From the NCBI GenBank assembly GCA_001661245.1, contig KV454011.1:523498-587497 (forward strand): a stretch of 64,000 nucleotides of DNA. Reading direction: 5' to 3'. The first letter of the stretch is position 1. Every line of letters begins with the position of its first letter. Shown here in pieces: positions 56-48,543 of this stretch. The DNA comes from Pachysolen tannophilus NRRL Y-2460 (lineage: Eukaryota). The notes beneath the pieces are model-generated. The model had not been told where the DNA came from and made no database searches. It was given only the letters and a program-made list of their open reading frames with translations. Made by a program: the position numbers and the translations under genes.

Positions 56-2257
56 ATGGCCACTCAAGTATTGCAATGTGGTAATTTTCTCAATAGTGAG
101 GCTAGGATTGATATTGGTAAAACTGATTTTTTTAACTCAAAAATGAAACCTCTGGAAGGTGATGATTTAATTAAAAAATACCCTATAATTCAATTTTTTG
201 CTAATATACTTGATGAACCTATACCGAAAGTTTTACAATTACTTTCTGAAATGTCTCCATCTCAGTTGATTGAAAAAAAAATTAATGTTAATAATAGTAC
301 AACAATAGAACTTACAAATATAAATCATTCAAATGATTTTTTTTTGAAAAAAAAAATATTATCCAAATATACATTTATAAATAATTTAAATAATGGGAAA
401 AATTTTTTAAACAAATTATATGATTTAGTAGATGGAAATGAAGGTTTCTTGATTGTTATTACAAGTTTATGGCTATGTCGTTCTCTATTCAATACTTTCC
501 CACAAACTAGTGAAGAAATAAGTGAAAGGAATAATGAAGAACAAGTTTTTTCAAATTCAACAAAAAAAATGGATAATTCAGAATCTGGAAAAATCAAAAA
601 CGTTAAATCCAACGAAATTGCAGAACTTTCCAACAAATCGTATTCTCCCACAATTTCTAAATTGTCTGAAATGTTTTCACACCTTTCACTAAGTAAAATC
701 CGTGAAACTGTACAAGAAGTTAATGGAGACTTGGATAAAGCTGTAGATTTACTTTTAAACGAAGATGCTGTCAGATTTGCTCAAAACACAAAGCAAAGCT
801 CTCTGCTTCCAGAGACTACTGGTGTGGTATCAGAAAATTTGTGCGACTATGATTTTTCCAATGAAAACGTTCAAGACCCAACAATGTTTAAAGAGAATTT
901 TGTATTTTTAAAAGAAATGTTCCCTAATATACCTCTGAGAGATATTGGTGATACTTTGGTAAAAACTGGAAACAATACCGTTTCATCAATTGAAATATTA
1001 TTAAATTATAAAAATTTTAAAAGGGAAATTTCTAATTACGATTCACAACAGATGATAAAATTGTCATTAAAGAATTCTTCAACTACAACTTCTACGAAAA
1101 CATGGGCTAAAATAGATGAAGAAGCAAAACAAGTTGTATCATTAACTGGAATTCCATTTGAAATAGCTAAAAGGTATTACCATGAAAATGACACCAATAT
1201 TATAAAAACTATTATTTCAATAATTGAAACCTATAAATCAGTTGAAGTTGAAGATGAAGCTAATGATATACAGCTGTTGAAAGCTGGAGGGAAGGTAAAA
1301 GGCCGAGTTCAAAGAGAAGTTCCACGAATGAGCTCCAAAATGTTTAAATTCGAAAATTTTCTGCTGCCACTGCTGCCACTGCCACTACTGCTGCTGCTGC
1401 TGCTGTCGCCCTTGTTACAGAAAAAGAAACATATCTATAAATATGATCCTGAAAGTAATGAATCCCAGGTATTGGGTCTTTCGAAACACGAAAATCCTAT
1501 ATTATTCACTGTTTCTGATAAGTTTTACGAAAGAGCAATGGAATTTTTCAATGGCAATATAAAGAAAGTTATTTCCGTTGCTACATTAATTTGTGAACAA
1601 AATTGTCAAGAATTAACTTTTGAAAGCCAAAGAGTTGGGAATACGGGAAAAAATGAAAATTCTATGAACTTTAATAATGCAGAAATTGAAAAAGAAAATA
1701 ACTTTACAAAACAAGAAAAGTCGGAGCCCAGTATAAACAATAATTCAAATACCAATTTGGATATCAACCCAATTTTAACAGCCGATAATTATTTTGCTAG
1801 AGCTCAGAATTATACTCAAATGGCAAGATCTTCACAATCGTCTGCAATCAAACATCATTATAATCAATTGGCTGCAGAAAATAAAAAAAAAGGCATAGAA
1901 TGTAAAAATTCTGAGCAAGGAGGACTACAAGAAGAACGATTACTTATTGCTAAACAAACATCGACTTTAGATTTGCATGGCTTGAGTGTTGAAGTTGCAT
2001 TGAAAACATTGCGCAAAGGCTTACAGGAATGGTGGGATGATGAATTGAAAGAAAGAGAACTCAATCATGGTAAGATGAATTATAGTAGCCTTAAGGCTTT
2101 CGCTATAGGACCCATGCGTATTATTACAGGTAAAGGAATTCATAGTAGAAATGGAGTCAGTCAGATTAAAAAACAAGTCAAATTATACTTACAACAGCAT
2201 AACTATATTTTTGATGATCAATCATCTGGCTACATTGTTGAAGGTAAACGCCATTGA
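56..2257 (+). CDS. CUE2: CUE-domain / Smr-domain endonuclease (Cue2-like, No-Go decay)
   Basis: Two CUE motifs (LSEMFSHLS...DLDKAVDLLL; LKEMFPNI...SIEILL) and a C-terminal Smr domain (LDLHGLSV...IITGKGIHS). True start uncertain. Contains a CTG tract at 1361-1405. Confidence 0.85.
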   Translation: MATQVLQCGNFLNSEARIDIGKTDFFNSKMKPLEGDDLIKKYPIIQFFANILDEPIPKVLQLLSEMSPSQLIEKKINVNNSTTIELTNINHSNDFFLKKKILSKYTFINNLNNGKNFLNKLYDLVDGNEGFLIVITSLWLCRSLFNTFPQTSEEISERNNEEQVFSNSTKKMDNSESGKIKNVKSNEIAELSNKSYSPTISKLSEMFSHLSLSKIRETVQEVNGDLDKAVDLLLNEDAVRFAQNTKQSSLLPETTGVVSENLCDYDFSNENVQDPTMFKENFVFLKEMFPNIPLRDIGDTLVKTGNNTVSSIEILLNYKNFKREISNYDSQQMIKLSLKNSSTTTSTKTWAKIDEEAKQVVSLTGIPFEIAKRYYHENDTNIIKTIISIIETYKSVEVEDEANDIQLLKAGGKVKGRVQREVPRMSSKMFKFENFLLPLLPLPLLLLLLLSPLLQKKKHIYKYDPESNESQVLGLSKHENPILFTVSDKFYERAMEFFNGNIKKVISVATLICEQNCQELTFESQRVGNTGKNENSMNFNNAEIEKENNFTKQEKSEPSINNNSNTNLDINPILTADNYFARAQNYTQMARSSQSSAIKHHYNQLAAENKKKGIECKNSEQGGLQEERLLIAKQTSTLDLHGLSVEVALKTLRKGLQEWWDDELKERELNHGKMNYSSLKAFAIGPMRIITGKGIHSRNGVSQIKKQVKLYLQQHNYIFDDQSSGYIVEGKRH

Positions 2258-2262
2258 CAAAT

Positions 2263-2335
2263 TCTACTGTTGCCGCTGCCGCTACCGTTGCTACTACTGC
2301 TGCTGCTGCTATTACTGCTATTACTGCTATTACCG
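2263..2335. repeat. Degenerate GCT/ACT trinucleotide microsatellite just after the CUE2 stop
   Basis: ...gccgctgccgctaccgttgctactactgctgctgctgctattactgctattactgct... Confidence 0.8.
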
Positions 2336-2530
2336 ATAGATTTCCTCTTTTGGATGTTTGATATTCTGCACTACTTTTTGGTTTTTTTTTTTTTTTTTTT
2401 TTTTTTGGTTTTTTTTTCGGTGGGAATTTTTCAAAAGTTTTCATTTTTTTTCATTTTGTATGTTATCAAGTTGTATAATTAATTAATATATTCCAAGAAT
2501 CAAGTCAAGTGTAATAATATAGGCGAGTGA

Positions 2531-3064
2531 ATGGTAATTATGTTTTCCACAAGGCCGATTAAAGATGTATCTGTGAGATCTCAGGTAGTAAATTTTATTA
2601 GAAATTATGCTGGTAAGCCATCATTACTGCAAGGAGCAGTTATTCCAAGAAGACCATTAAAGAAAATTCAAATAGGTAAAGCTAGACCTGCAATTTATCA
2701 TAAATTTAACTGTATGGTTGAGCTTTCCGATGGCTCTGTTTTCATTCGTCGTTCTCAATTTCCAAAAGTTGAAATGAGAATGATTACAGATCAGAGAAAT
2801 AATGTGATATGGAATGAAAGTAGATCAGATTTGGTTGTTGCAGATGCAGGAGCTAGAGGTAGATTGAACAGATTTAAAGAAAAATATGCCGATTTTGCTG
2901 ATGAATCCAAAGAAGAAAAATCAGAAAAGAAACTGTCTGCAGATGTAAAGCCAAAAGAAGATGAAGAGAAGGTGGATGATTATCTTGATTTATTGGGTGC
3001 AGGCCACGTTGAAAGCAAGTTGGGTGGTAACATTGCTGGTAAAAATAAAAGCAGAAAGAAGTGA
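2531..3064 (+). CDS. MRPL36: Mitochondrial ribosomal protein bL31m
   Basis: [21 protein letters not shown]...ELSDGSV..RRSQFPK...DQRNN matches recalled Mrpl36; adjacent to TFC1 as in S. cerevisiae. Confidence 0.92.
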
Positions 3065-3334
3065 AGCCCATCCGCTACATAAAATCATCACCACCATTCT
3101 CTTCTTGTATATATATATAGATAGATAATTAACAAATATTTCAAATTATTTGAAACGAAACTCGTCAAATAACGAGTAGTGTTTGAACTGACAAAAACAG
3201 TAAAAGAAACCTTTTAATTTAAGTAAACAAGAAGATGAAGTTAAAGAAGAAGAAGATAAAACTATATATATATATATATAAATATAATGGGTTCTTGGTT
3301 GTTTCTATCTTGTATGTGAAATTATTCATCTGTT

Positions 3335-5035: not shown

Positions 5036-5128
5036 GATATAAACACAATTATATTAATATTAGGTTTGTATAAAATTTTAACAAGTTTGGAAAAATTTAA
5101 AAAAAAAGCAAAGTTAATCAAGGAAAAA

Positions 5129-6060
5129 TCAAGCATCATGTAGTGAGTTATAATGTTCACCTAAAGCGTAAGAATATTTGTAGTAAACTAATTTCAATTC
5201 AGGGTTAGAACCTTCTTCATTAATTACCAAAGTAGACCGTCCAGCCATCATAACGCTAATAGGACAATCAAACACTTTAGCTAAAGCTAAAATTTCCATA
5301 TCACCACCCCATATAGCAGTAGTCTCCAAGTCCTTAGTATATGTATCAATATCTTTCATTGTCAATGTCTCCTCACTGAAAAGAAATGGAGCAAAAGTAT
5401 CACTATTCTGTCTAATATAATTGGCAGCACTTGTTCTCAAGTCTTGAATTGATTTATCAATATTGTGACGTATTTTTAATTGATCAGCTATCGATGCAAA
5501 CAAACAATGTCCATCAGGCTGTATATCAAATTGCTTCAACTTGTTCAATTCACAAAGTTTATCAATACTTGACAATTCTATTCCTTTCAAATCAACCTGG
5601 TCTTCAGCTTCCAATTCTGCTTGTTTTTTAGTCTCCTCAATTGCCGCATCACGGCGTGCTAACCTTTCCTTTTGCCTGTTTCTTTTTTCTTGGGTTGTTG
5701 TTGCTGGTGATCCTCCTTTGGCTCATCTTCTTTCAGTTCTTTTTGTTCTAATTCCAATTGAGCCAACAATTTCTCTGGAGTTAGCTCATCGTCATTTTCT
5801 ACCTTCTCCTCAGTTTTCCCATTTTCCTCATTTTTCTCAGTTTCCTTAATCTTTTCAGCATCTGGTGATTCTTTATTCAATTCCTTCAATTCCTTCAGCT
5901 GCTTTGCCTTCAAGTTTTCTTCCATTTCTTGACATTTCTTCATAACTTCTTTTTTTTTAGACTTTGTTGCTTGCTTCTTCATACCAGTTATAGTGGCAAT
6001 CAAGTCTCTATTTTCCTTTCTATGCCTAATTAAAATCTGCTCTTCAGTTTCTCGATCCAT
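5129..6060 (-). CDS. OTU2: OTU-family deubiquitinase (about 310 aa), split by one frameshift at 5683-5688
   Basis: N-part RHRKE.RDL.A.ITGMKKQATK and C-part with catalytic IQPDGHCLF and GEHYNS. Adding one A to an A6 run joins them through KKRNRQKERLARR. Confidence 0.9.
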
Positions 6061-6205: not shown

Positions 6206-6611
6206 NNNNNNNNNNNNNNNNNNNNNNNNNNNNNNNNNNNNNNNNNNNNNNNNNNNNNNNNNNNNNNNNNNNNNNNNNNNNNNNNNNNNNNNNNNNNNNN
6301 NNNNNNNNNNNNNNNNNNNNNNNNNNNNNNNNNNNNNNNNNNNNNNNNNNNNNNNNNNNNNNNNNNNNNNNNNNNNNNNNNNNNNNNNNNNNNNNNNNNN
6401 NNNNNNNNNNNNNNNNNNNNNNNNNNNNNNNNNNNNNNNNNNNNNNNNNNNNNNNNNNNNNNNNNNNNNNNNNNNNNNNNNNNNNNNNNNNNNNNNNNNN
6501 NNNNNNNNNNNNNNNNNNNNNNNNNNNNNNNNNNNNNNNNNNNNNNNNNNNNNNNNNNNNNNNNNNNNNNNNNNNNNNNNNNNNNNNNNNNNNNNNNNNN
6601 NNNNNNNNNNN
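6206..6611. other. Assembly gap (N run)
   Basis: Ns flanked by poly-T tracts. Confidence 1.
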
Positions 6612-6724
6612 NTTTAATTTTTTAGTTTTTTTATTTTTTTTATTTTTTTTTTTTTCTTATCTTGTTTTATTTTATTGTTTTTTTTTTTTTTTTTTTTGGT
6701 TTAAATTTTCAAGTGAACAAGTTG

Positions 6725-8602: not shown

Positions 8603-9155
8603 NNNNNNNNNNNNNNNNNNNNNNNNNNNNNNNNNNNNNNNNNNNNNNNNNNNNNNNNNNNNNNNNNNNNNNNNNNNNNNNNNNNNNNNNNNNNNNNNNN
8701 NNNNNNNNNNNNNNNNNNNNNNNNNNNNNNNNNNNNNNNNNNNNNNNNNNNNNNNNNNNNNNNNNNNNNNNNNNNNNNNNNNNNNNNNNNNNNNNNNNNN
8801 NNNNNNNNNNNNNNNNNNNNNNNNNNNNNNNNNNNNNNNNNNNNNNNNNNNNNNNNNNNNNNNNNNNNNNNNNNNNNNNNNNNNNNNNNNNNNNNNNNNN
8901 NNNNNNNNNNNNNNNNNNNNNNNNNNNNNNNNNNNNNNNNNNNNNNNNNNNNNNNNNNNNNNNNNNNNNNNNNNNNNNNNNNNNNNNNNNNNNNNNNNNN
9001 NNNNNNNNNNNNNNNNNNNNNNNNNNNNNNNNNNNNNNNNNNNNNNNNNNNNNNNNNNNNNNNNNNNNNNNNNNNNNNNNNNNNNNNNNNNNNNNNNNNN
9101 NNNNNNNNNNNNNNNNNNNNNNNNNNNNNNNNNNNNNNNNNNNNNNNNNNNNNNN
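8603..9155. other. Assembly gap (N run)
   Basis: Ns flanked by poly-A tracts. Confidence 1.
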
Positions 9156-11721: not shown

Positions 11722-12018
11722 NNNNNNNNNNNNNNNNNNNNNNNNNNNNNNNNNNNNNNNNNNNNNNNNNNNNNNNNNNNNNNNNNNNNNNNNNNNNNNN
11801 NNNNNNNNNNNNNNNNNNNNNNNNNNNNNNNNNNNNNNNNNNNNNNNNNNNNNNNNNNNNNNNNNNNNNNNNNNNNNNNNNNNNNNNNNNNNNNNNNNNN
11901 NNNNNNNNNNNNNNNNNNNNNNNNNNNNNNNNNNNNNNNNNNNNNNNNNNNNNNNNNNNNNNNNNNNNNNNNNNNNNNNNNNNNNNNNNNNNNNNNNNNN
12001 NNNNNNNNNNNNNNNNNA
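11722..12018. other. Assembly gap (N run)
   Basis: Ns preceded by a long poly-A tract. Confidence 1.
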
Positions 12019-20824: not shown

Positions 20825-22240
20825 TCAGCTTTTGCCGTCCATCTTGTTCAATTCTTTAACAAAGTTTTCACCCCAATAAGAAGCCGTATACTTACTTATA
20901 TATTTGAATAATTTATCAAAGTTGTTCTTTTTTTTCTCTTCTGGTAAAGTCAAACATTCCAGGATTGCTTCGCACATTTCTTCTGTGTTCCATGGATTAA
21001 TTACGTGGGCACCATTTAAAGATTGTGCGGCTCCTGCAAATTCTGATAAAATCAATGAACCTTTTCTTTCTTGTTGACAAGCGATATATTCATAACTAAC
21101 TAAATTCATACCATCTCTTGTAGAACTAACAAGACAAATATCGCTCACCGAATATAATGAGATCAATTCATCAAATGGGATTGATTTATGCATAAAATGA
21201 ATAGGTACAAATTCTACAGTACCAAACTGGCCATTTATTCTTCCAACTAATTCGTTAACGGTCAGCCTTAAAGATTGATATTCTTCCACATCTCCACGTG
21301 AAGGTACTGCCAATTGTACTAGTACGACTTTACCAATCCATTCAGGATGTTCTGATAAAAAGATTTCAAAAGCATGTAATTTTTGAGGTACACCTTTAAT
21401 GTAATCTAATCTATCAACACCAACAATAATCTTTGTATCTTTAAACTTTTCCTTTAATATCTGTATTCTATCCAAAACAGGTTGTTTTTGAAGTCCAGTG
21501 ATGAATTTATCCACATCAATTCCAATTGGGTAAGCACCTATATGAACCATTTTATTATTATATTCAACACCATTTGGTAAAGTATTAACATTTAAGATTC
21601 TTTGTACAGATGATAAAAAATGTCTAACATAATCATAAGTATGGAATCCAATTAAATCACAACTTAAAACACCTTCTAAAATTTCTTTTCTAACTGGTAA
21701 TATTCTGTAAATTTCAGAAGAAGGAAATGGTGTATGTAAGAAAAACCCAATTTTAACATTTTTAATTCCTAATTCATCAATCTTTGATCTTAACATCTGA
21801 GGTAATAACATCAAATGATAATCATGCACCCAAACCAAATCATTTTCCTTAACAAAAGTTATAATACTTTCTGCAAAACTTTTATTAGCCTCGATATATG
21901 CAGCCCATGAATTTTCATCAAAATTCATCTCACCCGGATGATAATGGAAAAGAGGCCATAATATCGAATTGCTAAACCCATTATAATGTAAATCGGCAAT
22001 CTCATCACTCAAATAAATAGGTATACACTTGAATTTTTCTTGTAACTCAGCATTAACTTTCTTTTGTTCTTCTTCAGGAACTTCTAGCCCAGGCCAACCA
22101 AACCATTTAAAAGACTGCTTCAATCCTTGTAACGCCGTCACCAACCCACCTGAAGACATTGCATATCCATAATCACCACTCTCCTTCTTCTTAATTGTAA
22201 TTGGAATCCTATTGGAAACAACTAAAACGTCACCGGTCAT
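20825..22240 (-). CDS. TPS1: Trehalose-6-phosphate synthase
   Basis: VVSNRIP, SSGGLV, WPLFHY, WVHDYHL, FLHTPFPSSEIYR, GVDRLDYIKG, RDGMNLV. Confidence 0.99.
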   Translation of the reverse strand: MTGDVLVVSNRIPITIKKKESGDYGYAMSSGGLVTALQGLKQSFKWFGWPGLEVPEEEQKKVNAELQEKFKCIPIYLSDEIADLHYNGFSNSILWPLFHYHPGEMNFDENSWAAYIEANKSFAESIITFVKENDLVWVHDYHLMLLPQMLRSKIDELGIKNVKIGFFLHTPFPSSEIYRILPVRKEILEGVLSCDLIGFHTYDYVRHFLSSVQRILNVNTLPNGVEYNNKMVHIGAYPIGIDVDKFITGLQKQPVLDRIQILKEKFKDTKIIVGVDRLDYIKGVPQKLHAFEIFLSEHPEWIGKVVLVQLAVPSRGDVEEYQSLRLTVNELVGRINGQFGTVEFVPIHFMHKSIPFDELISLYSVSDICLVSSTRDGMNLVSYEYIACQQERKGSLILSEFAGAAQSLNGAHVINPWNTEEMCEAILECLTLPEEKKKNNFDKLFKYISKYTASYWGENFVKELNKMDGKS

Positions 22241-22998: not shown

Positions 22999-24600
22999 TT
23001 AATCTTTGTCCTTTTCTCCATCTTCTTCGTCATCTTCAGCACCACTTCTATCTCTGTCGTAAAATTCGTCCAAGATTTTTGGAGAAATTCTGTTCAACAT
23101 TTCCTTTGGATAAATTCTCAATAATGACCAAGCTTGATCTAAACTTTCAAAAATTGTTCTATCTTCATAAGCACCTTGACTAATAAAAGTTTTTTCAAAT
23201 TTTTCCAAAAATTCTAAAGATAATTTATCCTCAATACTTAATGCTTCTTCTCCAACAACTGCTTTCATTGCTGCTGCGTCTCTTCCAATAGCATATTTGG
23301 CATATAATTGATTAGAAACATCACCATGATCTTTTCTAGTCATTCCTTCACCAATGGCACTTTTCATTAATCTGGATAATGAAGGTAAGACATTGATAGG
23401 TGGATAAATACCACGGTTATTTAAAGGACGATCAATGAATATTTGCCCCTCAGTGATATAACCTGTTAAATCAGGAATTGGATGGGTTATATCATCGTTT
23501 GGCATTGTTAAAATTGGAATTTGAGTAATTGAACCATTTCTACCTTCAACTCTACCAGCTCTTTCATAAATTGTTGATAAATCCGTGTACATATAACCAG
23601 GATAACCTCTTCTACCTGGAACTTCTTCTCTTGCAGCAGAAACTTCTCTTAAAGCATCAGCATAAGATGACATATCAGTTAAAATTGTTAAAACGTGACG
23701 TTCGGTTTGATATGCTAAATATTCAGCAGTAGTTAAAGCAAGACGTGGAGTGATAATTCTTTCAATAGTTGGATCATTTGCCAAATTTAAAAATAAAGAA
23801 GTTCTCTCTAAAGAACCATTTTCTTCAAAATCTTGTTTGAAAAATCTTGAAGTTTCTAAATTAACACCCATAGCTGCAAATACAATCGAGAAATTTTCTT
23901 CATGACCATCATGAACATCTTTAGTTGGTCTAACCAAGCCTGCTTGTCGACAAATTTGAGCAGCAATTTCATTATGCGGTAAACCAGAAGCTGAAAAAAT
24001 TGGAATTTTTTGACCTCTTGCAATAGAATTCATAGTATCGATTGCAGAAATACCTGTTGATATCATTTCTTCAGGGTAAATTCTAGCATATGGATTAATA
24101 GGAGAACCATTGATATCCAAATAATCTTCAGCAAAAACTTTTGGACCATTATCAATCGGTCTACCAGAACCATCAAAAATTCTTCCTAACAGATCCTCTG
24201 AAACAGCAATCTTCAAGTTTTCACCTGTAAATTCAACTCTAGTCTTTTTAACATCAATACCAGAAGTTCCTTCAAAAACTTGGACAACAGCTCTATCACC
24301 CCTGACTTCTAAAACCTGACCTGCTCTAACAGTTCCATCTGGAAGAGTCAAATTAACAATTTCGTTAAAACGAGGAAATTTGACATTTTGTAAAATCACT
24401 AATGGTCCATTAATACCTCCAACAGTGTTATAATTGATACGAGGCTTAATTTTAAAGCTATTAGTAACAGCCTTTTTATTTATCGCAACTAATAATCATC
24501 ATGATAGCAATGTTAGTATATGTCCTAATAATTTAAATTTGATAGTCATTTAAGACGTATTCGTTTTATATTACTTACAAAGTTCTTCATCGGTCAACAT
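22999..24600 (-). CDS. VMA2: V-ATPase V1 subunit B, 503 aa; exons 24600-24579 and 24488-22999
   Basis: Near-identical to Vma2. Splicing a 90-nt intron restores MLTDEELFAINKKAV. Confidence 0.98.
24489..24578 (-). other. Spliceosomal intron of VMA2
   Basis: GTAAGT donor, TACTAAC at 24518-24512, TAG acceptor; reading frame restored. Confidence 0.95.
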
Positions 24601-32000: not shown

Positions 32001-33928
32001 GCAGATTTCTTTTGTACTATTATGCTGTGTCTACTTAAACATTTAGTTTTTTCTAATAATTCCCTTACACCATCTCGTACTTCGTTAATATATGAAGTTT
32101 GGAAAGAATAACCTAATAATTCTCCCGAGTTTGACGAATATATTGGTTTATCTTGAGGATTTAATAAAAATTTCCCACAAGCTTTGAATAATGGTTTCAA
32201 AGGCCTTTTAGTTGGATCATCTATTGTTACTTTAAAATAATTCATTGGAATCCAACCTCTATTTAGATTGTCATCTAGAAGCGTGACCTCACCCCAACCA
32301 GTCTTGTCAACCAAGTGAATGAAGGCAACAACATCTTTCGTGAAAGATAAACAAATCGATGCATCACTAGTAGATTCTAATTGACTCGAATTAAATGGAT
32401 GTGTTGCTGTGATGAAAAGTACAGACAAATCATCGTTCTTATCAATTTCATGTTCTTGGGACGCTTTAGCTGTGCTAATACTTGTAGAAGAATAATTTTG
32501 TGATTCTCTTTTAGAAATATTTGAGAAATTCTGTTTCAAGTTTCCCTGCTGAGTATGAGTACGTTGTTGAAGCCATGTTTTGTGAACAGGAACAGAAACA
32601 GGTGTTTCTTTGCGTTCTTGCTCTTGCTCTTTCTCTTGCTCTTGTTCTTGCTCTTGATCATGTTCTTGTTCTTGTTCTTGTTCTTGTTTTTCCTTATTGA
32701 ACTTGCTTATTTCTTCGAAATCACCTTCTTCTTGAGTTGATGGTGGAGTTATCAATTCATCTTTTATCAATTCACTTGACACAATATAATCATTTATTTT
32801 TTCCGTGAATTTGGTTGAATTAAGGTCAGATTCCTTACTTGGTTCTACCTGCGGTTGTGGCTTATATACATGATACAATTCTTCCTCTTCTTCCTCCTGC
32901 TCATTATCATCATTATCATTATCATATTTTCTCTCATTTAAATTTTGTTGTTGAACCTTGTTCACTTGGATTAATTTTACATCACTTCCCTGTCTTGTGA
33001 AATATTCATCATAGCCTATTAAACCTTGACCTTGATCATTATTCATTGAAGTTAAATCTTCTGGTTCAACAACACTTGATCTGTTTAATCTTTGTATTAA
33101 TCTATTTTTCAAAAATAACCTCTTATTTTGTTTTTTATTATGATTATTCTGGTCATTGGTGGTTGTGTTTGTTGCTGTTACAGGTGGATTAGGCAGAGGT
33201 CTTAACGGTTGAAGTGAAGAATATTTTTCAAAACCATGTTTATCCACAATTGGAGTCTTATCGTTATCAACTTCGTCAGCTTCATCAACTTCTTCTATAG
33301 CAAATTGTTTTACATTAGACATTCTTATACCATTGGCGTTACCCCTATCATCACCATCAGAATCAGAATCAAACGGATTCCCATATACAGACGAAGTTGT
33401 TGTATTAAAAGTCATATTCGAGACATGTTTTTGGTAGCTTATATCGTTACTGTCATTCAAATTTTCAGTATCAACTGTAGTATTTGCAAGTTCATCTTCT
33501 TCCACATCTAGATCAAAGTCACCTAAATTCGAACTTGATGAAAAAATAGTGCTTTCAGACTTGGTGCTTGATACGTTTCTATTATGACCTTGTTGTCCTT
33601 TCAAATTCAAAGATGATAAAGATGATTTTTTCTTAATATTCAACGGTAATATCTTATAGTTGTTATCCACAAAATGAGGCCTTCCACTACTAATACCGCC
33701 ATCACCATTACCATTACTATTAGCAGCTGCTGCTGCAGTTGCTGCTGCATTAACCTCTTTAATTTTTAAAGGTCTTACCTGGTGTAAACCCATAGAATCA
33801 ATCGATTGAGCAGGACTCTCTTGCGGATACGTCTCTAAATCACCTGTGTTCAACTTGGGAGTCTTGGCTTCGAACGTAAACTCCCCATTTTCACCACTAT
33901 TATCATTCTTCTTAAGCGCCGACAACAT
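29090..33928 (-). CDS. BUD5: SH3 + RasGEF_N + CDC25-type RasGEF, Bud5-like
   Basis: SH3-like CLSF...TGWGEVTL...RGWIPMNY; GEF motifs ISKQLTIIE, LNNFNSLASI, FIPYLNLFLQDLTF, INIDKY. Confidence 0.75.
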   Translation of the reverse strand: MLSALKKNDNSGENGEFTFEAKTPKLNTGDLETYPQESPAQSIDSMGLHQVRPLKIKEVNAAATAAAAANSNGNGDGGISSGRPHFVDNNYKILPLNIKKKSSLSSLNLKGQQGHNRNVSSTKSESTIFSSSSNLGDFDLDVEEDELANTTVDTENLNDSNDISYQKHVSNMTFNTTTSSVYGNPFDSDSDGDDRGNANGIRMSNVKQFAIEEVDEADEVDNDKTPIVDKHGFEKYSSLQPLRPLPNPPVTATNTTTNDQNNHNKKQNKRLFLKNRLIQRLNRSSVVEPEDLTSMNNDQGQGLIGYDEYFTRQGSDVKLIQVNKVQQQNLNERKYDNDNDDNEQEEEEEELYHVYKPQPQVEPSKESDLNSTKFTEKINDYIVSSELIKDELITPPSTQEEGDFEEISKFNKEKQEQEQEQEHDQEQEQEQEKEQEQERKETPVSVPVHKTWLQQRTHTQQGNLKQNFSNISKRESQNYSSTSISTAKASQEHEIDKNDDLSVLFITATHPFNSSQLESTSDASICLSFTKDVVAFIHLVDKTGWGEVTLLDDNLNRGWIPMNYFKVTIDDPTKRPLKPLFKACGKFLLNPQDKPIYSSNSGELLGYSFQTSYINEVRDGVRELLEKTKCLSRHSIIVQKKSAIRKLRKQLLQDWYKLMERAKDYRNTVDLTKIEVLELYVYKVLKKSIIFLDIWNVEYPNIQNELFVGESQTKTVGFNKFKYDFNNIPLLSQPPDIRERLYEISNILVSYLCLIIGRMDLIEHNAMGYKLLEILTHHILLLWKELSNIGSKFLEILVKTEENLSHKKVLKNYMLDLEGLIRNFIKFEGDFIKNSEQESRNLIYNVPKRNDEEIYYYTETGAKLIDISSKMIAKSIHISSFLKFLLQKKVHNKNLELSSKRSYVDFTQLKIEPEEFIKKLTVGLINSKEFESRDHKIGSRSGGDSKNKRKRFSTLRSGKTGSLMLDEEGIEFYLEQLPNISTSSPLFNNDEIFKDFTDSGNANKDIKDNPYYRNNVSNEIMKDQDGHIIGTSFRGLIFLMTDELMSNSDRTSMNEELLISTFFINYKFFGSSEELLDCLIDRFDLSNTFLSNEQKSNSDNMYSSLESRFKSRRKLIVKILNIWLCSYWNYKNIEHFKILTTLLNFISEGVSNYLPLESVKLIETIAKIISSSSLPVENMNVKEPEKDVKQLVERDILVLGKNDTIDDDDNDNDRFSMISLSSSLNNDEKLGSLYITDSGSSSSNSIKSLLSNSSGSSNYGTSLSKSQLSNIETINLAYRQFLTTRHWKPHSSTSSFFESWSVLINERFKLPLSLKPSHLLEFNEIEISKQLTIIESNIFRKIKIEELLDSNFAEKKLYLKLSPNINKSLLFTNALSEYVIETLLQENLTIKQRCEILKKWLQISQSLLCLNNFNSLASIVISLQNFLISRCSRIWSNLDQNHLKIFERLCKVIHPEKNYLIYRKILKKILAKKHKNIRFIPYLNLFLQDLTFVVEGNSNYRPSNTFLSQKLINIDKYFKITKIIGDLQFIQKYYLITEASLVPSSPKKNKKNSNILGARFSRTNFTPDNNYIYPVLPLQEMILLELWKVKQLKLNDDDRAWKLSCLIQPREK

Positions 33929-36678: not shown

Positions 36679-38925
36679 TTATAATATAACTTCATTCAAC
36701 TTATCTGGTAACTCAACATCTTTTTCTTTTAATTGCTTTAATATTTTTGGAATACCGTCACCAAGTTTGAAATCTTTATCAGTTGTTAAACAAGAACTCA
36801 AGTCTTCTAATATAGCCATTAATAATGGTTTATTTCTAATGGTACGACCCTGATTAAAATATTTTAACAAAAAATAAAAAGTATAAAAATTTACCTTACT
36901 ATTCTTGTCATTTTTCAACAATTCGTAATATTTGATAGCTTTATTAATATAATCAGATTTCACGCATCCATCGATGATATTATTAAAGAATGAAGTGGAA
37001 ATTTTAAATCCAGATTTGATACTTTTTTTGAAAAATTCTTCTGCTATCGTTATGTCACCAGATTTTGATTCTGCATTAATGATTGTGGTGTAAGTCTTGA
37101 GACTCATTGGAACTTTGTTTTCAACCATATAATGGGTCAACAACCTGGCTATTTCAAATTCTTGGAATTTGTATAATCCATCAATAATAGTAGTCAAATT
37201 ATAAGTAGTATTGAATTCAATGTTATTCTGTTTCATATCTTGAATGATATTAGATAATGTGGTCTTGATATCAAATTTCTCATTTCTTTCAACTGAATAT
37301 TTAAACATCAAGTTAATCAATATCGTATAAGTTGCAATATCTGGCTTCAAATCATATTTATCTTGCATGATATTAATCAATTCTTCACATTTGTCAAATT
37401 TCTTTAGGCCACAATATTTTGTAAGAAAAGAGTTAAATACCTTAATATCTGGTTTAAAATCAGAATCTTTTTCTCCGACAAAGCTTTGGAAAATTTTCTC
37501 TGATTCCAGTAATTTATCTTTAAATAATAATTCCAAAATATAAGCAATCTTAATATCGTTATTTATCTTTAAACCATTAAATGAACCTTTTGGAGAACTC
37601 AATTCTTGAATTAATTTAAAAGATTTTTCAAATTCATCATTTGCAATATAACCACAAATTAAATACTTGATTGTATCTTGATTAATACCTACATTTTCCA
37701 AGATGTAATTAAAAGTTTTTTCAATTTTTAATAAATTTTCATCTTTTTGTTCTTTTGTAAAATTTTTTTTAACTTTACTAAAACTGTATAATAACTCATT
37801 CCAAGAAGATATTGATGGAGTTATATTTCTTTGTATCATTTCATTCCAAACGACTTGGGCTTTTGCAGGATTAGAAACTAAAGAATAAGCATGCATTAAT
37901 TTTTGGAAAGATTCTTCGGTGACTGGAATTTCTTTAAGTTTAGAAATTTTTAAAATATTTCTATAGTTATTATCAATTATAGAAATCTTATATTGTTGAG
38001 CAGCTTTTAAATTTTCAATCAGAAAAGTTTCAGAATTAGGATCCATAGCTTCAAGTTCACATGTTCTAATAAAATTTTGAAAAAATTTTTCAAATTCCTT
38101 AATATTATCAATAGAAGATGAACGAAGTCTTGACATGTATAAATTTAAAGCTCTATAACTTGGTGTGTAATTTGAATCTTGAATCAAAGAATGATAAAAT
38201 TCTAAACTTGGTTGTTGCTTATTTAAGAAACATGAATAAAGATAACTCAAATAAACAATACTTAATTCAGCTTTTTCATAAATTGGATTCCGAACTGCTA
38301 TGAATGCATTTTTCAAATCATCTGGCAAGCTTTTAGAATATTCAATAAATTCAATCCATAAACTCAAAGAATCATTCGGTTTCCCATCTTTCAAGTAATC
38401 AAACATAACTCTATTGAATTGTGAAACATTCAGTAACTGATAATTGATCAAAATTGACAAAACTTTATAATTCAAAGTAGCAGTACTTAAACCTTCAGCA
38501 CCAGTGTTCAACTTCTCCAACTTATCCATTAACAGATTACTCTTATAAATCAATAATCCGGTAGCCATACTAGTACTAATCCTTTTATATTTCTGTTCTT
38601 TTTCCAAAAAATTCTGGAACCGATTAATCAATGTATCGACATCTTTTATACCTTCATCTTGAATAATCTTATCCAACAGCTGACCAAAATTTAACCTTCT
38701 TGGACGTTGATGTTGTGTCTCTGTTACCGCATCTGTCGTGTCTGCTACTGACTCTGTTGCCACAGATTGCTCACTATCAACAGCAGCAGTTGAATTAAAA
38801 CGCATCATCAACAAAGTATACTTGAACGCAACAGTCTTAGTGCTATTGCTTGGCAATAAACACCTCAAAGTTTGTGGACATGCCGCCCTATTAATACGAG
38901 CTATACTACTTCTTAACTGAATCAT
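36679..38925 (-). CDS. RMD9: Mitochondrial pentatricopeptide-repeat protein, Rmd9-like
   Basis: Presequence-like N-terminus; PPR motifs (ITPSISSWNELL, KPDIKVFNSFL, KPDIATYTILI). Confidence 0.65.
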   Translation of the reverse strand: MIQLRSSIARINRAACPQTLRCLLPSNSTKTVAFKYTLLMMRFNSTAAVDSEQSVATESVADTTDAVTETQHQRPRRLNFGQLLDKIIQDEGIKDVDTLINRFQNFLEKEQKYKRISTSMATGLLIYKSNLLMDKLEKLNTGAEGLSTATLNYKVLSILINYQLLNVSQFNRVMFDYLKDGKPNDSLSLWIEFIEYSKSLPDDLKNAFIAVRNPIYEKAELSIVYLSYLYSCFLNKQQPSLEFYHSLIQDSNYTPSYRALNLYMSRLRSSSIDNIKEFEKFFQNFIRTCELEAMDPNSETFLIENLKAAQQYKISIIDNNYRNILKISKLKEIPVTEESFQKLMHAYSLVSNPAKAQVVWNEMIQRNITPSISSWNELLYSFSKVKKNFTKEQKDENLLKIEKTFNYILENVGINQDTIKYLICGYIANDEFEKSFKLIQELSSPKGSFNGLKINNDIKIAYILELLFKDKLLESEKIFQSFVGEKDSDFKPDIKVFNSFLTKYCGLKKFDKCEELINIMQDKYDLKPDIATYTILINLMFKYSVERNEKFDIKTTLSNIIQDMKQNNIEFNTTYNLTTIIDGLYKFQEFEIARLLTHYMVENKVPMSLKTYTTIINAESKSGDITIAEEFFKKSIKSGFKISTSFFNNIIDGCVKSDYINKAIKYYELLKNDKNSKVNFYTFYFLLKYFNQGRTIRNKPLLMAILEDLSSCLTTDKDFKLGDGIPKILKQLKEKDVELPDKLNEVIL

Positions 38926-39373: not shown

Positions 39374-39408
<35 letters not shown>

Positions 39409-39812
39409 AATCAGAGCGTTTGTCATTTTTTCTTCTCATGAACAGATTAGTCGAAGAGCTGGGTTTATAAATATAAATAGAATCCTTCAAGGATTCATTA
39501 TCATCATGATATAATTTGCAAAATAATTTGGGACTTGTTCCTTCAACTGGTTGAAACTTTTAAAATTAAATATTAACGTACCTTAACCTTAATACTTGTT
39601 TAAATAATTCAGTGTTGTTATGAATAAATAAATCTAATAGAAATATAATTTTGAACATCTTTTGTATAAATTTTTCATCAACAGGAAAAAAAGAAAATTT
39701 TTACCCGGTTTTACACCAATTGACCTTTAACCACGAGTGTTTAAATACTACTATATTCAAGCAGTTGAGTTAGAATATATATCTATATATATCTATATAT
39801 ATATATATATAT

Positions 39813-41100: not shown

Positions 41101-42380
41101 TCACAAGGGCTCATCTTCTAATATTTTGAAATAATCTTCGTTGATTTTTTTAATTAACACTGTACCTTTTTCGAAATGATTGTCTTTCCAATCTCTAATA
41201 TCATCCGCTGAGTAAGGGCCGTAAACTTCATCATGACCTATATACTTGAATTCGTATTTTATATCTTTTGAACCAGATTGTGTTTCTTCATCATTTTTTT
41301 GTTCATATAAATTGTCTAATTTTCTCTTAACTCCTCTAGTACCGCTCTCGCCGTTACTTATTGGTTTATAATCTTCTCCAGATTCTTCTTTATACTTTCG
41401 GATCAATTCTTCCCTTGTTAGGTCATAGATATTAGTTACTCCTTTGTCAATTAACTTATTGCATAATAGCGTTATTTCTTCAATTTTCAGTTTCCTTTGC
41501 TGTACCACTTCTTTATCATCTTCTAAGATTTTATTCTTTTTTTGGTTTTTGTTCTTCCATTTGCTATGTTTTGTATTCAACAGTTGTAATGACTCCAAAG
41601 GTGTCTCTACAGGTTTTAGCAACTCTATAAGTCCACCTATCAACTGCTCAATTGGTTTAAAAGCTTCATTTTGACTCAGAGCCAACATTTTCAGTCTCAG
41701 TTTATCTTGTGATTTTTTGGCTTTTATAATATCTGATTTCTTCAAATCCAGTAACCAAGAATCTTTATTCAGTTCTTTTTCCTCTTCCTCATCATCATTT
41801 CTTATATAGTTCCCATCTATATCAAACTGCCCAGTCTCATTCTCTTCTTTTAAATTAAACAGATCAAGTTTTGGTTCATATTTTTTTTTTTAGAAAAATC
41901 CAAATTTTCCTTTTCCGGATTGTTATAATACTCATAATACAGTTCCTGTTTGTCTGCTTCTTCATCGCTACCACCTTCAGCATCTTCAATATCTTCTACA
42001 TCATCATGTTGAGAACCATTATCACTCAATCCCATCTCCTGATTAAATTCATCAACGTTTAAAAACTCAACTTGTTTTTTAACCTTTTTTTTATTAGTTT
42101 CTTCAACTTCTTTTCCCTCATCCACATCTGAAACAAACATATCCTCATCACTTCCATTTTTATCAATTTCTTCATCTTTCTCTTTCATATCTTTATAATC
42201 CTCATCAGAAGAATCGGAATCATAATTTAATTTTATTCTTCTCTTTACATTTTTAGCTTTCTTAACTGAACCTTCAATGTCCTGTTCAAGTAACTCATCT
42301 TCAAGACTTTTCGAATTTCCCTGAGACTCCTTATTACTCTCCACTTTCAAAGTAAGTGGATTATGAAAGTTGAATGACAT
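41101..42380 (-). CDS. LIN1: U5 snRNP 52K/CD2BP2 GYF-domain protein (about 426 aa), split by one frameshift at 41881-41891
   Basis: YDSDSSDE, DMF, KLD[CTG]FNLKEE..TGQFD.DGNY, DSWL, ETPLE, and C-terminal GYF-like VYGPYS...W...HF. A11 to A12 joins the two ORFs. Confidence 0.88.
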
Positions 42381-42736
42381 CTTTCACCACCCATCACTAA
42401 ACGGTACATATAGAAATAAAACAAAAAACTGAGACAAACACTAAAGATATATACACACACAGTTGATATATGAATAAAGTCTTTGTTTGCATTTACACAG
42501 TAATTATCTATCTTCTCCGCTACGGAGAATAGTTTTACAATTTTTTTAATATTCTCCAAACACCAATAAATTCTCCTACTTGGAGAATGGAGAAGTTTGT
42601 GTTTCGTTTTTCTTTTTTTTTTTTTTTTTTTGGCTCTTTTCAAGTTTTAACGTCTTTTCTAACGTCTTTTTTATATACAGAAAGATAGATAATAGTTTGT
42701 GGTATTAAAGAGTTATTGGTATTAAAGAATTTTGCC

Positions 42737-44439: not shown

Positions 44440-44844
44440 ATGGAACCAATAATTTCTATTTCAGATCTAATTGAATTTCACAAGACTCATATTTCAGAAA
44501 ATGTACCTGAAATAAATTTTGATCAAGAATATAGCAACGAAGATGGTGGAAACAACTTATTAAGTGATGACGAGCAAGAAAGTTTCCCAACTTTCCATGT
44601 GAATGATTTAACAAATGATTTTTATAATTTAGAAAGAAAATCCAAGAATATAAAATTAAATAAAGATCAATTACAATATTTACTTTTTAGAAAAGAGCAT
44701 TTACAAAAATTCAAAATTGAAATGAATAATTTTTATCAACAAAGGAAAATTGAACATAAAGAAGAAAATGAACAAGATTTTAAATTAAATTCTCATAATA
44801 GTAGTGAAGAAATTGAAATTGAATTAGATGAATTAGATTATTAA
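44440..44844 (+). CDS. Hypothetical acidic protein (134 aa)
   Basis: Open frame with coding-like composition between poly-A/T spacers; no family recognised. Confidence 0.5.
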   Translation: MEPIISISDLIEFHKTHISENVPEINFDQEYSNEDGGNNLLSDDEQESFPTFHVNDLTNDFYNLERKSKNIKLNKDQLQYLLFRKEHLQKFKIEMNNFYQQRKIEHKEENEQDFKLNSHNSSEEIEIELDELDY

Positions 44845-45677
44845 ATCTTTTACATAGAAACGGTATTTAATAATAAATGAACTAACTAATTTTACATACA
44901 TCCCAAATCTTATCAATTAGGGTAGGGTTACACATACTGTACAATGTAAATAAAGTCCACTCTCCCTTTTACTATTACCATTGTAAGCTAAGCTAACTCT
45001 ACAATAGTGTCTCAGACATTCATATATATTTATATATATATATGACATACACTAGATAGAATATCAGAACAGTTGGTATTTGACGTCAACTTATCACCAG
45101 AATAGACATTGTTATCTTAACTTTTTACTAAATACGTGCACACATTCTGGGCAGACTGGAAACTCAAAAAGATGCGATTCGTTAGTTAAATTTCCCTCTG
45201 AGCTGCACTTTTTCTATGAAAGTTTCAATTTTGTTAAATTGATTAATTTTATTGGCTTATTTAATCCAATATAGCTCAATTATTAAATTGGTCAACTGAA
45301 ATTTCCAATTTGATCAATTTGAAATGGATATTCTGATGAATATTGTATGAAAAATGGTAACTTCACCTTTGTAATACGGATTTTAGGTGATTAAGTACTT
45401 ATAAATTGTCCTCATTTTAATGACACGCAAGAAACCTTGCTAATAATTTATGTCTCAAAAGAAAAAGGGGAAGGAAGATTAATAAAGAACCTTTTATTAA
45501 AGTCTACTAAAATATTACAATTGTTAATTCTGCAAATAAAACAATGGTTTTCTTTTTAAAATAAAAAAAAAAAATAAAAAAAATAGAGGACAAAAAGTAA
45601 AGTTTTATTCAAAATGAAATAGTATTGATTAAATAAAAAGAAAAAAAAAAAAGTAAGAGATATATCAAATGAACATT

Positions 45678-46469
45678 TTAAACATCCTTGCCGCCAGCAA
45701 CATCTTGTCCTAACTTGTAATTATTAATTGATCTACCCCATTGGACTTTAGCTCTATTAATAGGCAATTGCCTTCTCAAGTTTTTAAAATATTTTTCATT
45801 TAATTCTTGAAATTGAATTAATACATGTTTTTCAAAATCATTTTCAAAATTATTGATAAAAGATACTAAATCATTAAATTCAACTTTAGAATCTTCTAAT
45901 TTCTTATCTGTAATTAATCTAACATTACCATCTTCAAAATAATGAACATTTATTTTAATTTTTCCACTAACTTGTTGTGATACTTTGTCATATTTATAAA
46001 AAGAAGACCATTTACCATTATAAAAATTCTTTGGACTAAATTTTAAATCCAATATTATAATAATAAAATCATTTTCATTTTCAATTAAAATTGATTTAAA
46101 ATGAGATGGGAAATGTTCTTGAACATAAGTCTTCAACGATTTATTTAATTTTAAGTAATCGTCTGATAATTCTAGTTCAAATTCTTCTAAATCAATTGCC
46201 ACCAACTTCTTGAAATCAACGTTAAATTTAGTTTTTGAATCATAATCAACATATTTAGAGCCTTCTTTATTATGTTTCGATATTACTGTATAATCATTTT
46301 TTAATTGTATTAATTCAAAATCATCTGTTAAGAAATCTTCTATTGATGAAGATAAATCTTTTTGATCATCTTGAATTATGGTTTTAATATCCGATACCAC
46401 ATTATGTAACTCACCTGGCGGTGAATCTTTTATCATATCATTTATGATTGAGTCCAATGATGCAGACAT
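45678..46469 (-). CDS. CAP1: F-actin capping protein alpha subunit
   Basis: DSPPGEL, NFYNGKW.S, VHYFEDGNVRL, FK.LRRQLPINR.KVQW. Confidence 0.97.
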   Translation of the reverse strand: MSASLDSIINDMIKDSPPGELHNVVSDIKTIIQDDQKDLSSSIEDFLTDDFELIQLKNDYTVISKHNKEGSKYVDYDSKTKFNVDFKKLVAIDLEEFELELSDDYLKLNKSLKTYVQEHFPSHFKSILIENENDFIIIILDLKFSPKNFYNGKWSSFYKYDKVSQQVSGKIKINVHYFEDGNVRLITDKKLEDSKVEFNDLVSFINNFENDFEKHVLIQFQELNEKYFKNLRRQLPINRAKVQWGRSINNYKLGQDVAGGKDV

Positions 46470-46674
46470 GTTCTAACGATGGATGTATATTTAACAAAAA
46501 TATCAACTCTTTTATTAGAACTTATTTTTTGAAGCCTAAATAATTTTTTTTATATAATAATAATAAGGTGTTGATGTTTTTTATTTTTTTTTTCACATCT
46601 CTTTATACGTAAAAAAATTAAAGTGTGGGTTTTCTATAAACTAAATTAAAAATCTATATATATATATATATATC

Positions 46675-47685
46675 TTATTTGTTGACGTCAATAACAAAGA
46701 AATGAGAGCCTAGAAACATTCTAATTATTTTTTTACTTTCATCTACAAAATCTTTATCATCAAATCCATCAATAATGTTATCAATTTCATTTTTAACTTT
46801 TAATTTCTCTTTATCTGATAACGAAGTAATATAAGATCTTGATTCCCAATAAGGATAAACTTTATCTTTTGCAATATTCAAATTTTTGAAAGTAAATCCT
46901 TCAAAAACAGTATTTCTACTGAAAAAATCTTGATTTTTAAAAGTTTTTCTCCATTTACCGTGTCTATATTGAGGAACATTAATATCATATGAATAAATAT
47001 AATTGGCGATAAGATCCCATTTTGATGTATTAATGCATAGATAATTAATCAATTTTTCTAATTTTTTTACATCAGATTTAATAAAATTTCCACTGTTGTA
47101 AATAAATTCTTGACTTAATTTTTTCAATTCATCATTTTGATAATCTAATGAATAATTTTCAAGATTTTCATCTTGAAAAAAAACATGAGCATTACTTGAT
47201 GCATCAAAATTCCAAATAAATCCTAATTTACCTTTTGGTTTTAAAATTCTATACATTTCTTTTAATGAATTAGTATCCGCAAACCAATGATAACCTTGTG
47301 CAACAATAATAATATCAGCACTATTATCTTCCAATGGAATTTCATAACTTGAACCATTTAATATACATTCTGGATTTAAATTTGGAAATCTTTTTTTAAA
47401 TGATTCAATCATTCCAATTGAGGGTTCAACAGTTACTAAATTTGATTTATTATTCCAACCACAATTGATTAAATTAGTTGTAAATTTACCTGTTCCTGAA
47501 GCAATTTCTACAATTTTTAAATCATTACGATATTGATTTGTATCAAAATTATAAGCATTTAACTTGTGTAAAAATGAATTAACAAAATCTTTATCATAAT
47601 CTGGTCTTACTTGATCATATAATACATGATTTGAATTAAAAGAATTTAATGAATTTGGGTTTACGCTTCTATGATCAATTGACAT
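46675..47685 (-). CDS. Class I SAM-dependent small-molecule methyltransferase
   Basis: YDQVRPDY, EIASGTGKFT, VEPS.GM, AQGYHWF, EMYRILKPKG.LGFIWN, SRSYI. Confidence 0.9.
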   Translation of the reverse strand: MSIDHRSVNPNSLNSFNSNHVLYDQVRPDYDKDFVNSFLHKLNAYNFDTNQYRNDLKIVEIASGTGKFTTNLINCGWNNKSNLVTVEPSIGMIESFKKRFPNLNPECILNGSSYEIPLEDNSADIIIVAQGYHWFADTNSLKEMYRILKPKGKLGFIWNFDASSNAHVFFQDENLENYSLDYQNDELKKLSQEFIYNSGNFIKSDVKKLEKLINYLCINTSKWDLIANYIYSYDINVPQYRHGKWRKTFKNQDFFSRNTVFEGFTFKNLNIAKDKVYPYWESRSYITSLSDKEKLKVKNEIDNIIDGFDDKDFVDESKKIIRMFLGSHFFVIDVNK

Positions 47686-48104
47686 ACTTGCGCATCTATA
47701 ACTTAAAGTTGAAGCTTATTAAAAGATTGGATCTTTATTAACTTTTTAAAATATTAAAATATATATATATATTATATTTATATATATATTAATGTGAGTT
47801 AGTTAATTAATTAGTTAATTTCTTTGCAGGTGAGGCTCAAAATTATATTTAAATTGAAAAATAATAATAATGATGAAATTCAGCACCATTACTACATCAA
47901 AACCATCTTCTTTAAGCTATATTTTTTTTCCTTTAAATTACATATACTACAAATCGAGTTCTGATAAAAGGTAGACTGTTAATAATAAAAAAAAAAGCTA
48001 AAAATCCAAAATGCCATGTCATGCCATCCTATTAATAAAACAAAAGAAACCAAAAAAAGAATTTTGTTACCTTAATTTTGTCTTTCTTCTTCTTCTCTGT
48101 TCAC

Positions 48105-48543
48105 TCACCAGAATTTAAATAAAGTCCATAAAATGAAAAAAGCTAATAATCCAATACCAATCATTCTAAATGTATTACTGTTTGCATTAATAACTCTAGC
48201 TAATTTATTTGATGTGTTTTTAACCTTATTTAAAAACGAGGACATAGCGCTATTTGCAGCGTCTAAATTATATTGATCTTGAAGTGATTGATCATGAACA
48301 TCCTGTGTTACTTTTCTAAAAGTTGATATTTTTGAAGCCAACAGGTCAAACCTTTCATTATTCTAAATATATATATATATATATATATAATTTTTATTTT
48401 AATATTAGTCTTTGCTCATAAATTACAATCCTGATCCATCATTTCAAACTTGCACATAAAGAAAAGAAAAAAGAAAAAAAGAAAAAAAGAAAAAACTTGT
48501 AACTTACCTCAGATTCCCTTTGAGCATAGGTACTGCTTGACAT
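48105..48543 (-). CDS. SFT1: Golgi Qc-SNARE, 97 aa; exons 48543-48508 and 48362-48105
   Basis: Spliced MSSSTYAQRESENNERFD.LASKISTFR...RMIGIGLLAFFILWTLFK; C-terminal TM anchor. Confidence 0.92.
48363..48507 (-). other. Spliceosomal intron of SFT1 (145 nt)
   Basis: GTAAGT donor, GACTAAT at 48410-48404, (TA)n run, TAG acceptor. Confidence 0.88.

What the first reader, a model, noticed from the sequence alone, without database searches (positions are those of the whole stretch)
1361..48344. Non-standard genetic code: CUG most likely reads as alanine
Seen: CTG is rare in highly expressed genes (none noticed in RPL14, one each in TPS1 and VMA2). In-frame CTGs occur at LIN1 PKLD[CTG]FNL (41860-62), TPS1 YQSLR[CTG]TVNE (21263-65), BUD5 QPLRP[CTG]PNPP (33194-96), RMD9 NYQL[CTG]N (38431-33), OTU2 KAKQ[CTG]KEL (5896-98) and SFT1 RFD[CTG]LASK (48342-44). 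Recalled homologs: fungal Lin1 has D/E-A/P-FN, Tps1 has S or A, and the Sft1 and Otu2 positions are small/polar. Inference: Leu fails TPS1 and LIN1, Ser fits LIN1 and BUD5 poorly, and Ala fits all six. Established: a CUG-Ala code (table 26) exists in Pachysolen and relatives, so the code itself is known, but it changes every translation in the ORF track.
Basis: partly seen in the sequence, partly recalled or inferred. Interest (0 to 1): 0.85.

Follow-up and report, generated by a model that had tools for sequence, protein, structure and literature searches.

The report
Known CUG-to-alanine yeast genetic code

Summary
The window is nuclear DNA of Pachysolen tannophilus. Its RMD9-like ORF matches NCBI protein PACTADRAFT_31182 of strain NRRL Y-2460 at every aligned residue, apart from X at CTG and a 15-residue gene-model gap. 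The public proteins carry Ala at all CTG codons compared: 12 of 12 in three proteins. Table-26 translations of 5 of 6 ORFs are exact public entries; table-1 and table-12 translations are not, 0 of 4. CUG=Ala in this species is published, from LC-MS/MS and a tRNA-Ala with anticodon CAG (PMC4937558).

My own alignment test covered 10 scorable CTG columns in three proteins. It rejects Leu: plurality Leu in 1 of 10, 5.4 expected, P=0.002. It cannot separate Ala from Ser. Two conserved columns are clearly Ala: TPS1-326 and RMD9-165. The VMA2 CTG aligns with Met in all five homologues shown.

CTG rarity is no more than AT-richness predicts (71 seen, 59 expected). No tRNA-CAG lies in the window and no genome is held, so the tRNA test could not be run. 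Verdict: interpretation supported, already known (NCBI table 26), low interest.

The parts
1361..1405 (+). Run of 11 CTG codons mixed with CCA and one CTA, in the linker between the CUE and Smr domains of ORF 56-2257. Table 26 gives an Ala/Pro-rich linker; the standard code gives poly-Leu.
5896..5898 (-). It aligns with Glu in S. cerevisiae Otu2 (8c83).
20825..22240 (-). TPS1 gene with two CTG codons: 21263-21265 (codon 326) and 20960-20962 (codon 427). The table-26 translation is an exact public entry.
21263..21265 (-). TPS1 codon 326. Homologues: A 74, S 43, N 1, T 1 of 119, and no Leu. All named Komagataella, Kuraishia, [Candida] boidinii, Wickerhamomyces and Cyberlindnera sequences have A.
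24190..24192 (-). VMA2 CTG at a conserved column that is Met in all five solved homologues shown. This is a counter-example to 'CTG sits at Ala columns'.
33194..33196 (-). Column not tested.
36679..38925 (-). RMD9-like PPR gene with five CTGs. It matches NCBI PACTADRAFT_31182 of P. tannophilus NRRL Y-2460 at every aligned residue except X at CTG, and that record has Ala at all five.
38431..38433 (-). RMD9 codon 165. Homologues: A 36, L 6, I 4, S 3 of 56.
38020..38022 (-). RMD9 codon 302. Homologues: L 26 of 56 (hydrophobic column), A 1.
41860..41862 (-). It aligns with Pro in human CD2BP2.
48342..48344 (-). No solved homologue was found, so the column is untested.
58584..58586 (+). Beta-mannosidase codon 827. 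Homologues: V 74, S 10, P 8, I 8, A 5, T 4, L 3 of 119.

Best explanation
The window is nuclear DNA of the budding yeast Pachysolen tannophilus, from a 2.51-Mb scaffold. This species reads CUG as alanine (NCBI table 26).

Published mechanism, not tested here: the ancestral tRNA-Leu(CAG) was lost, and a tRNA-Ala gene copy acquired the anticodon CAG. Alanyl-tRNA synthetase recognises the G3:U70 pair and A73 and ignores the anticodon, so this tRNA is charged with Ala and inserts it at CUG.

CTG codons now in the genome are mostly young. They arose after the reassignment at sites that tolerate change, so they rarely sit at conserved Leu columns and only sometimes at conserved Ala columns.

Shown here: the identity of the organism, Ala at CTG in the public proteins, and rejection of Leu by alignment columns. 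Taken from the literature: the tRNA and the peptide evidence.
For: Organism and public annotation:
- The RMD9-like ORF matches NCBI 'PACTADRAFT_31182 [Pachysolen tannophilus NRRL Y-2460]' at 688 of 708 aligned positions. The 20 others are the 5 X at CTG and a 15-residue gap. That record has A at 5 of 5 CTGs.
- The window's own beta-mannosidase and TPS1 entries have A at 5 of 5 and 2 of 2 CTGs.
- Exact look-up: table-26 translations are present for 5 of 6 ORFs (TPS1, beta-mannosidase, RasGEF, cyclin, ORF 62038-63612). Table-1 and table-12 translations of TPS1 and beta-mannosidase are present for 0 of 4.

Literature:
- PMC4937558, Results section read. The tRNA-CAG has G3:U70, A73 and no long variable arm, and groups with tRNA-Ala. 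Of 907 CUG positions with full fragment-ion support, 97.2% were Ala.
- PMC5951914, passages. The Ala clade comprises Pachysolen, Nakazawaea and Peterozyma.

Independent test in this window, 10 scorable CTG columns in TPS1 (119 homologues), beta-mannosidase (119) and RMD9 (56):
- Plurality Leu in 1 of 10, against 5.4 expected from the window's other Leu codons, P=0.0024.
- Summed log-likelihood: Leu -6.9, Ser +0.18, Ala -0.23.
- TPS1-326: A 74, S 43 of 119. The named Komagataella, Kuraishia, [Candida] boidinii (3 of 3) and Wickerhamomyces and Cyberlindnera (4 of 4) sequences all have A.
- RMD9-165: A 36 of 56.

The CTG run at 1361-1405 lies in a linker between soluble domains, where poly-Leu would be odd.
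Against: - No tRNA with anticodon CAG lies in the window and no genome is held. The decisive tRNA test was therefore not run here.
- The alignment test does not favour Ala over Ser. Totals are S 0.18 against A -0.23 over 10 sites. Ala leads (0.57 against -0.21) only after dropping the two N-terminal beta-mannosidase sites.
- Plurality Ala occurs in only 2 of 10 CTG columns, against 5.4 expected from ordinary Ala codons, P=0.022.
- Individual sites look like other residues: VMA2 Met in 5 of 5 shown, RMD9-302 Leu in 26 of 56, beta-mannosidase-827 Val in 74 of 119, RMD9-83 Gln in 30 of 55.
- Ala in the public proteins is annotation and follows the published code, so it is not independent biology.
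- Some homologues come from automatic predictions that may themselves misread CTG.
Confidence: 0.97

Rival explanations
1. CUG is read as serine, as in the Candida/Debaryomyces (Ser1, table 12) or Saccharomycopsis/Ascoidea (Ser2) clades.
For: Over the 10 scorable CTG columns Ser scores marginally best: 0.18 against -0.23 for Ala. TPS1-326 is Ser in 43 of 119 homologues. The best solved TPS1 match is the Candida albicans enzyme, with Ser at that site.
Against: The organism is P. tannophilus, which lies outside both Ser clades (PMC5951914). Published peptides show Ala at 97.2% of 907 positions, and the tRNA lacks the serine-type variable arm (PMC4937558). Table-12 translations of TPS1 and beta-mannosidase are not in the public collection, 0 of 2. 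Ser at TPS1-326 is seen mainly in Saccharomycetaceae. Named relatives nearer to Pachysolen have Ala.
Confidence: 0.01
2. CUG keeps its standard meaning, leucine, and is simply a rare codon in an AT-rich genome.
For: The CTG count is what composition predicts: 71 against 59 expected. RMD9-302 is a Leu column, 26 of 56. The VMA2 CTG aligns with Met, to which Leu is the conservative replacement.
Against: Plurality Leu occurs in 1 of 10 CTG columns, against 5.4 expected, P=0.0024. The likelihood for Leu is about 7 natural-log units below Ala and Ser. No Leu appears among 119 homologues at TPS1-326. Table-1 translations are not in the public collection, 0 of 2. Published peptides contradict it.
Confidence: 0.01
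3. CUG is decoded ambiguously: mostly Ala, with a meaningful fraction of Leu or another residue, as reported for Ascoidea asiatica (Ser/Leu).
For: A few CTGs sit at Met, Leu or Val columns. The paper found 26 of 907 positions with non-Ala or mixed calls.
Against: The authors found the same level of deviation at AUG and concluded that decoding is unambiguous (PMC4937558). Nothing in the window bears on it directly.
Confidence: 0.01

Closest known systems
Pachysolen tannophilus nuclear code (NCBI translation table 26; CUG-Ala clade: Pachysolen, Nakazawaea, Peterozyma)
   Same: Same organism and same reassignment. The public proteins from this very DNA carry Ala at CTG.
   Different: Nothing differs. 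This window is an instance of the known case.
CUG-Ser1 code of Candida/Debaryomyces yeasts (NCBI table 12)
   Same: The same codon is reassigned away from Leu, and CTG codons avoid conserved Leu columns.
   Different: The residue is Ser, from a tRNA-Ser(CAG) with a long variable arm. It is a different clade, and table-12 translations of this window's genes are not the public ones.
CUG-Ser2 / dual Ser-Leu decoding in Saccharomycopsis and Ascoidea
   Same: A third independent reassignment of CUG in budding yeasts (PMC5951914, abstract and passages; PMC6041473, abstract seen in listing).
   Different: The residue is Ser, or stochastic Ser/Leu with two competing tRNAs. No sign of that was tested or found here.

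Membership tests
CUG-Ala code (NCBI table 26) | Organism belongs to the Ala clade (Pachysolen, Nakazawaea, Peterozyma) | tested here: met
   The RMD9-like ORF matches a named P. tannophilus NRRL Y-2460 protein at every aligned residue except X at CTG. Five further ORFs are exact public entries on the same 2,514,465-bp contig.
CUG-Ala code (NCBI table 26) | A tRNA with anticodon CAG carrying alanine identity elements (G3:U70, A73) and no long variable arm | not testable with these tools
   The window holds only tRNA-Gln(UUG) and tRNA-Val(AAC), and no genome is held. The feature is published for this species (PMC4937558).
CUG-Ala code (NCBI table 26) | Peptides spanning CUG codons show alanine | not testable with these tools
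   Published: 97.2% of 907 fully supported CUG positions (PMC4937558).
CUG-Ala code (NCBI table 26) | CTG codons do not sit at conserved Leu columns | tested here: met
   Plurality Leu in 1 of 10 scorable columns against 5.4 expected, P=0.0024. Leu log-likelihood -6.9.
CUG-Ala code (NCBI table 26) | Alignment columns at CTG fit Ala better than any other residue | tested here: inconclusive
   Ser 0.18 against Ala -0.23 over 10 sites. Ala 0.57 against Ser -0.21 over 8 sites. Two clear Ala columns: TPS1-326 and RMD9-165.
CUG-Ser1 code (NCBI table 12) | Organism in the Debaryomycetaceae/Metschnikowiaceae clade, with a tRNA-Ser(CAG) | tested here: not met
   The organism is P. tannophilus. The clade assignment comes from PMC5951914. 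The tRNA itself was not testable here.

The most novel reading that the evidence does not exclude
Some CTG codons of Pachysolen sit at strongly conserved non-Ala columns: Met in VMA2 at 24190-24192 and Leu in RMD9 at 38020-38022. One could ask whether decoding at such sites is context-dependent, or whether a minor Leu or Met-like reading persists. That would make the reassignment not fully clean.
Probability: 0.02. Interest if true: 0.55.

Novelty: already known. Interest (0 to 1): 0.08.

Why it matters
Every ORF translation in this window has to use table 26. At least 71 CTG codons in 27 ORFs would otherwise be misread. One example is an Ala/Pro-rich linker that would be read as poly-Leu. Beyond correct annotation nothing new follows. 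The reassignment, its tRNA and its peptide proof were published in 2016 and are built into the public records for this DNA.

The check has one methodological lesson. A single 64-kb window gives enough CTG columns to reject Leu but not enough to tell Ala from Ser.

Tried and rejected
- The whole genome was not available, so no tRNA-CAG search was possible.
- Earlier notes on this genome: none.
- Sequencing runs: five DNA-type holders with coded names and no RNA holder listed.
- The word-indexed search with RMD9 found only the protein itself. The HMMER representative search was used instead. From its 150 listed hits I kept 56, judged by hand to be full-length single-stretch orthologues of about 650-790 aa, and dropped 93 other PPR proteins and the self hit.
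- Beta-mannosidase CTG codons 246 and 748 fall in insertions (0 and 14 of 119 homologues occupied) and were not scored.
- RasGEF: solved homologues are distant. The CTG columns held R/K/R, K/K/D, G and H/K, so they are uninformative between Ala and Ser.
- One solved-structure search was run without alignments by mistake and repeated on a shorter stretch.
- SFT1 has no solved homologue.
- CTG rarity as evidence was rejected, because composition explains it.
- The Rfam gathering scan missed tRNA-Val. It was found with laxer filters.
Full report
**What is in the window.** The window is 64 kb at 27.5% G+C, with three masked N runs (6206-6612, 8603-9155, 11722-12017). It holds about 30 yeast-type genes. 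Among them are TPS1, VMA2, RPL14, a PP2C phosphatase, a RasGEF of 1612 aa, an RMD9-like PPR protein, YIF1, LIN1, CAP1 and a GH2 beta-mannosidase. No whole genome is held for it.

**Check of the observation.**
They are in frame on the minus strand, in the quoted contexts.
- RPL14 has no CTG. VMA2 has one, at 24190-24192. TPS1 has two, codons 326 and 427, not one.
- In 27 ORFs CTG occurs 71 times in 12,125 codons. Position-specific base frequencies predict 59, so the rarity is what an AT-rich genome gives and is no evidence by itself.
- Eleven of the CTGs form a run at 1361-1405, mixed with CCA codons. The run lies in the linker between the CUE and Smr domains of ORF 56-2257.

**Identity of the organism.**
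- A search with the RMD9-like ORF, with X at each CTG, returned one protein: 'hypothetical protein PACTADRAFT_31182 [Pachysolen tannophilus NRRL Y-2460]'.
- The pairwise alignment has 688 identities in 708 positions. The 20 others are the five X positions and a 15-residue gap in the gene model. At all five CTGs the NCBI protein has Ala.
- The collection's own entries for this window's beta-mannosidase and TPS1 differ from my X-translations only at the CTGs, and have Ala at 5 of 5 and 2 of 2.
- In an exact-sequence look-up, the table-26 translations of 5 of 6 ORFs were present in NCBI/UniRef: TPS1, beta-mannosidase, RasGEF, cyclin and ORF 62038-63612. All lie on a contig of 2,514,465 bp. The sixth, ORF 56-2257, was absent, presumably because of a different gene model.
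- The table-1 and table-12 translations of TPS1 and beta-mannosidase were absent, 0 of 4.
- This shows which organism this is and how its records are translated. It is annotation, not independent biology.

**What is published.**
- Mühlhausen et al. 2016 (PMC4937558; outline and Results section read) report that the P. tannophilus tRNA with anticodon CAG groups with alanine tRNAs. It carries the G3:U70 pair and A73 and has no extended variable arm.
- In the same paper, of 907 CUG positions fully supported by fragment ions, 97.2% were alanine. Deviations were at the level seen for AUG.
- They count 16,824 CUG codons in 4210 of 5288 genes.
- Krassowski et al. 2018 (PMC5951914; passages) place Pachysolen with Nakazawaea and Peterozyma in an Ala clade, separate from the Ser1, Ser2 and Leu clades.
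- A second 2016 report of the same reassignment is cited there as reference 12. I did not see that paper.

**Independent test: method.** I collected homologues for three proteins:
- 119 for TPS1;
- 119 for beta-mannosidase;
- 56 for RMD9, kept by hand as full-length single-stretch orthologues out of 150 listed. The other 93 PPR proteins and the self hit were dropped.

Twelve CTG codons lie in these proteins. Ten fall in columns occupied by at least half of the homologues. Beta-mannosidase codons 246 and 748 are in insertions.

**Independent test: result against Leu.**
- As calibration, the window's ordinary Leu codons have Leu as the plurality residue in 114 of 208 columns.
- The CTG columns have plurality Leu in 1 of 10, against 5.4 expected, P=0.0024.
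- I summed a likelihood score built from the same alignments, using for each residue type the mean homologue distribution. It gives Leu -6.9, Ser +0.18 and Ala -0.23. Without the two N-terminal beta-mannosidase codons it gives Ala +0.57, Ser -0.21 and Leu -6.2.
- So Leu is rejected, Ala and Ser are the two best of twenty residues, and this window cannot separate them.

**Independent test: single sites.**
- Sites that speak for Ala: TPS1-326, with A 74, S 43, N 1, T 1 of 119. All named Komagataella, Kuraishia, [Candida] boidinii, Wickerhamomyces and Cyberlindnera sequences have A there, and Ser is mainly in Saccharomycetaceae. RMD9-165 has A in 36 of 56.
- Sites that do not: VMA2, with Met in 5 of 5 solved homologues shown; RMD9-302, Leu 26 of 56; beta-mannosidase-827, Val 74 of 119; RMD9-83, Gln 30 of 55.
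- The LIN1 site aligns with Pro in human CD2BP2. The OTU2 site aligns with Glu in yeast Otu2.
- Plurality Ala in only 2 of 10 columns is fewer than ordinary Ala codons give (5.4 expected, P=0.022). This fits the published view that present CTG codons arose after the reassignment, at tolerant sites.
- Several plurality residues (Gln, Val, Met, Leu, Pro) have codons one base away from CTG. That is what de novo origin by point mutation would give. This last point is my inference.

**What could not be done.** The window contains only tRNA-Gln(UUG) at 58853-58924 and tRNA-Val(AAC) at 63666-63739. Peptide evidence cannot be produced here.

**Verdict.** The interpretation, CUG = Ala, is correct for this organism. 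Interest is low. The practical consequence is that ORFs of this window must be translated with table 26.

Noticed in passing
window 41101-42383 (-): LIN1 is split over two overlapping reading frames: 41850-42383 and 41101-41889. The second carries the GYF-type C-terminus and 8 CTGs. This is a short intron or a frameshift at about 41850-41889.
   Followed up: no
window 36850-36894 (-): The NCBI model of the RMD9-like gene omits 15 residues (codons 678-692) although the window's frame is open through them. It looks like a predicted intron inside an intact ORF.
   Followed up: no
window 63666-63739 (+): tRNA-Val(AAC) was missed by the whole-window Rfam scan at gathering threshold with fast filters. 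It scores 53.8 bits with laxer filters. ARAGORN found it.
   Followed up: yes
window 39409-39511 (-) and 48885-48993 (-): Two C/D-box snoRNA matches, snR69 (50.7 bits) and snR87 (40.6 bits), in intergenic stretches.
   Followed up: no
window 56-2257 (+): The table-26 translation of the CUE-Smr ORF is not an exact public entry, unlike 5 other ORFs. The public gene model probably differs in its start or in an intron.
   Followed up: no
CTG columns in TPS1, beta-mannosidase, RMD9, VMA2, LIN1: The plurality residues at several CTG columns are Gln, Val, Met, Leu and Pro. Their codons are one base away from CTG. This suggests that present CTG codons arose by single point mutations at tolerant sites.
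   Followed up: partly
window 6206-6612, 8603-9155, 11722-12017: Three masked N runs, 1256 bases in all, interrupt ORFs on both strands. The genes there could not be read.
   Followed up: no
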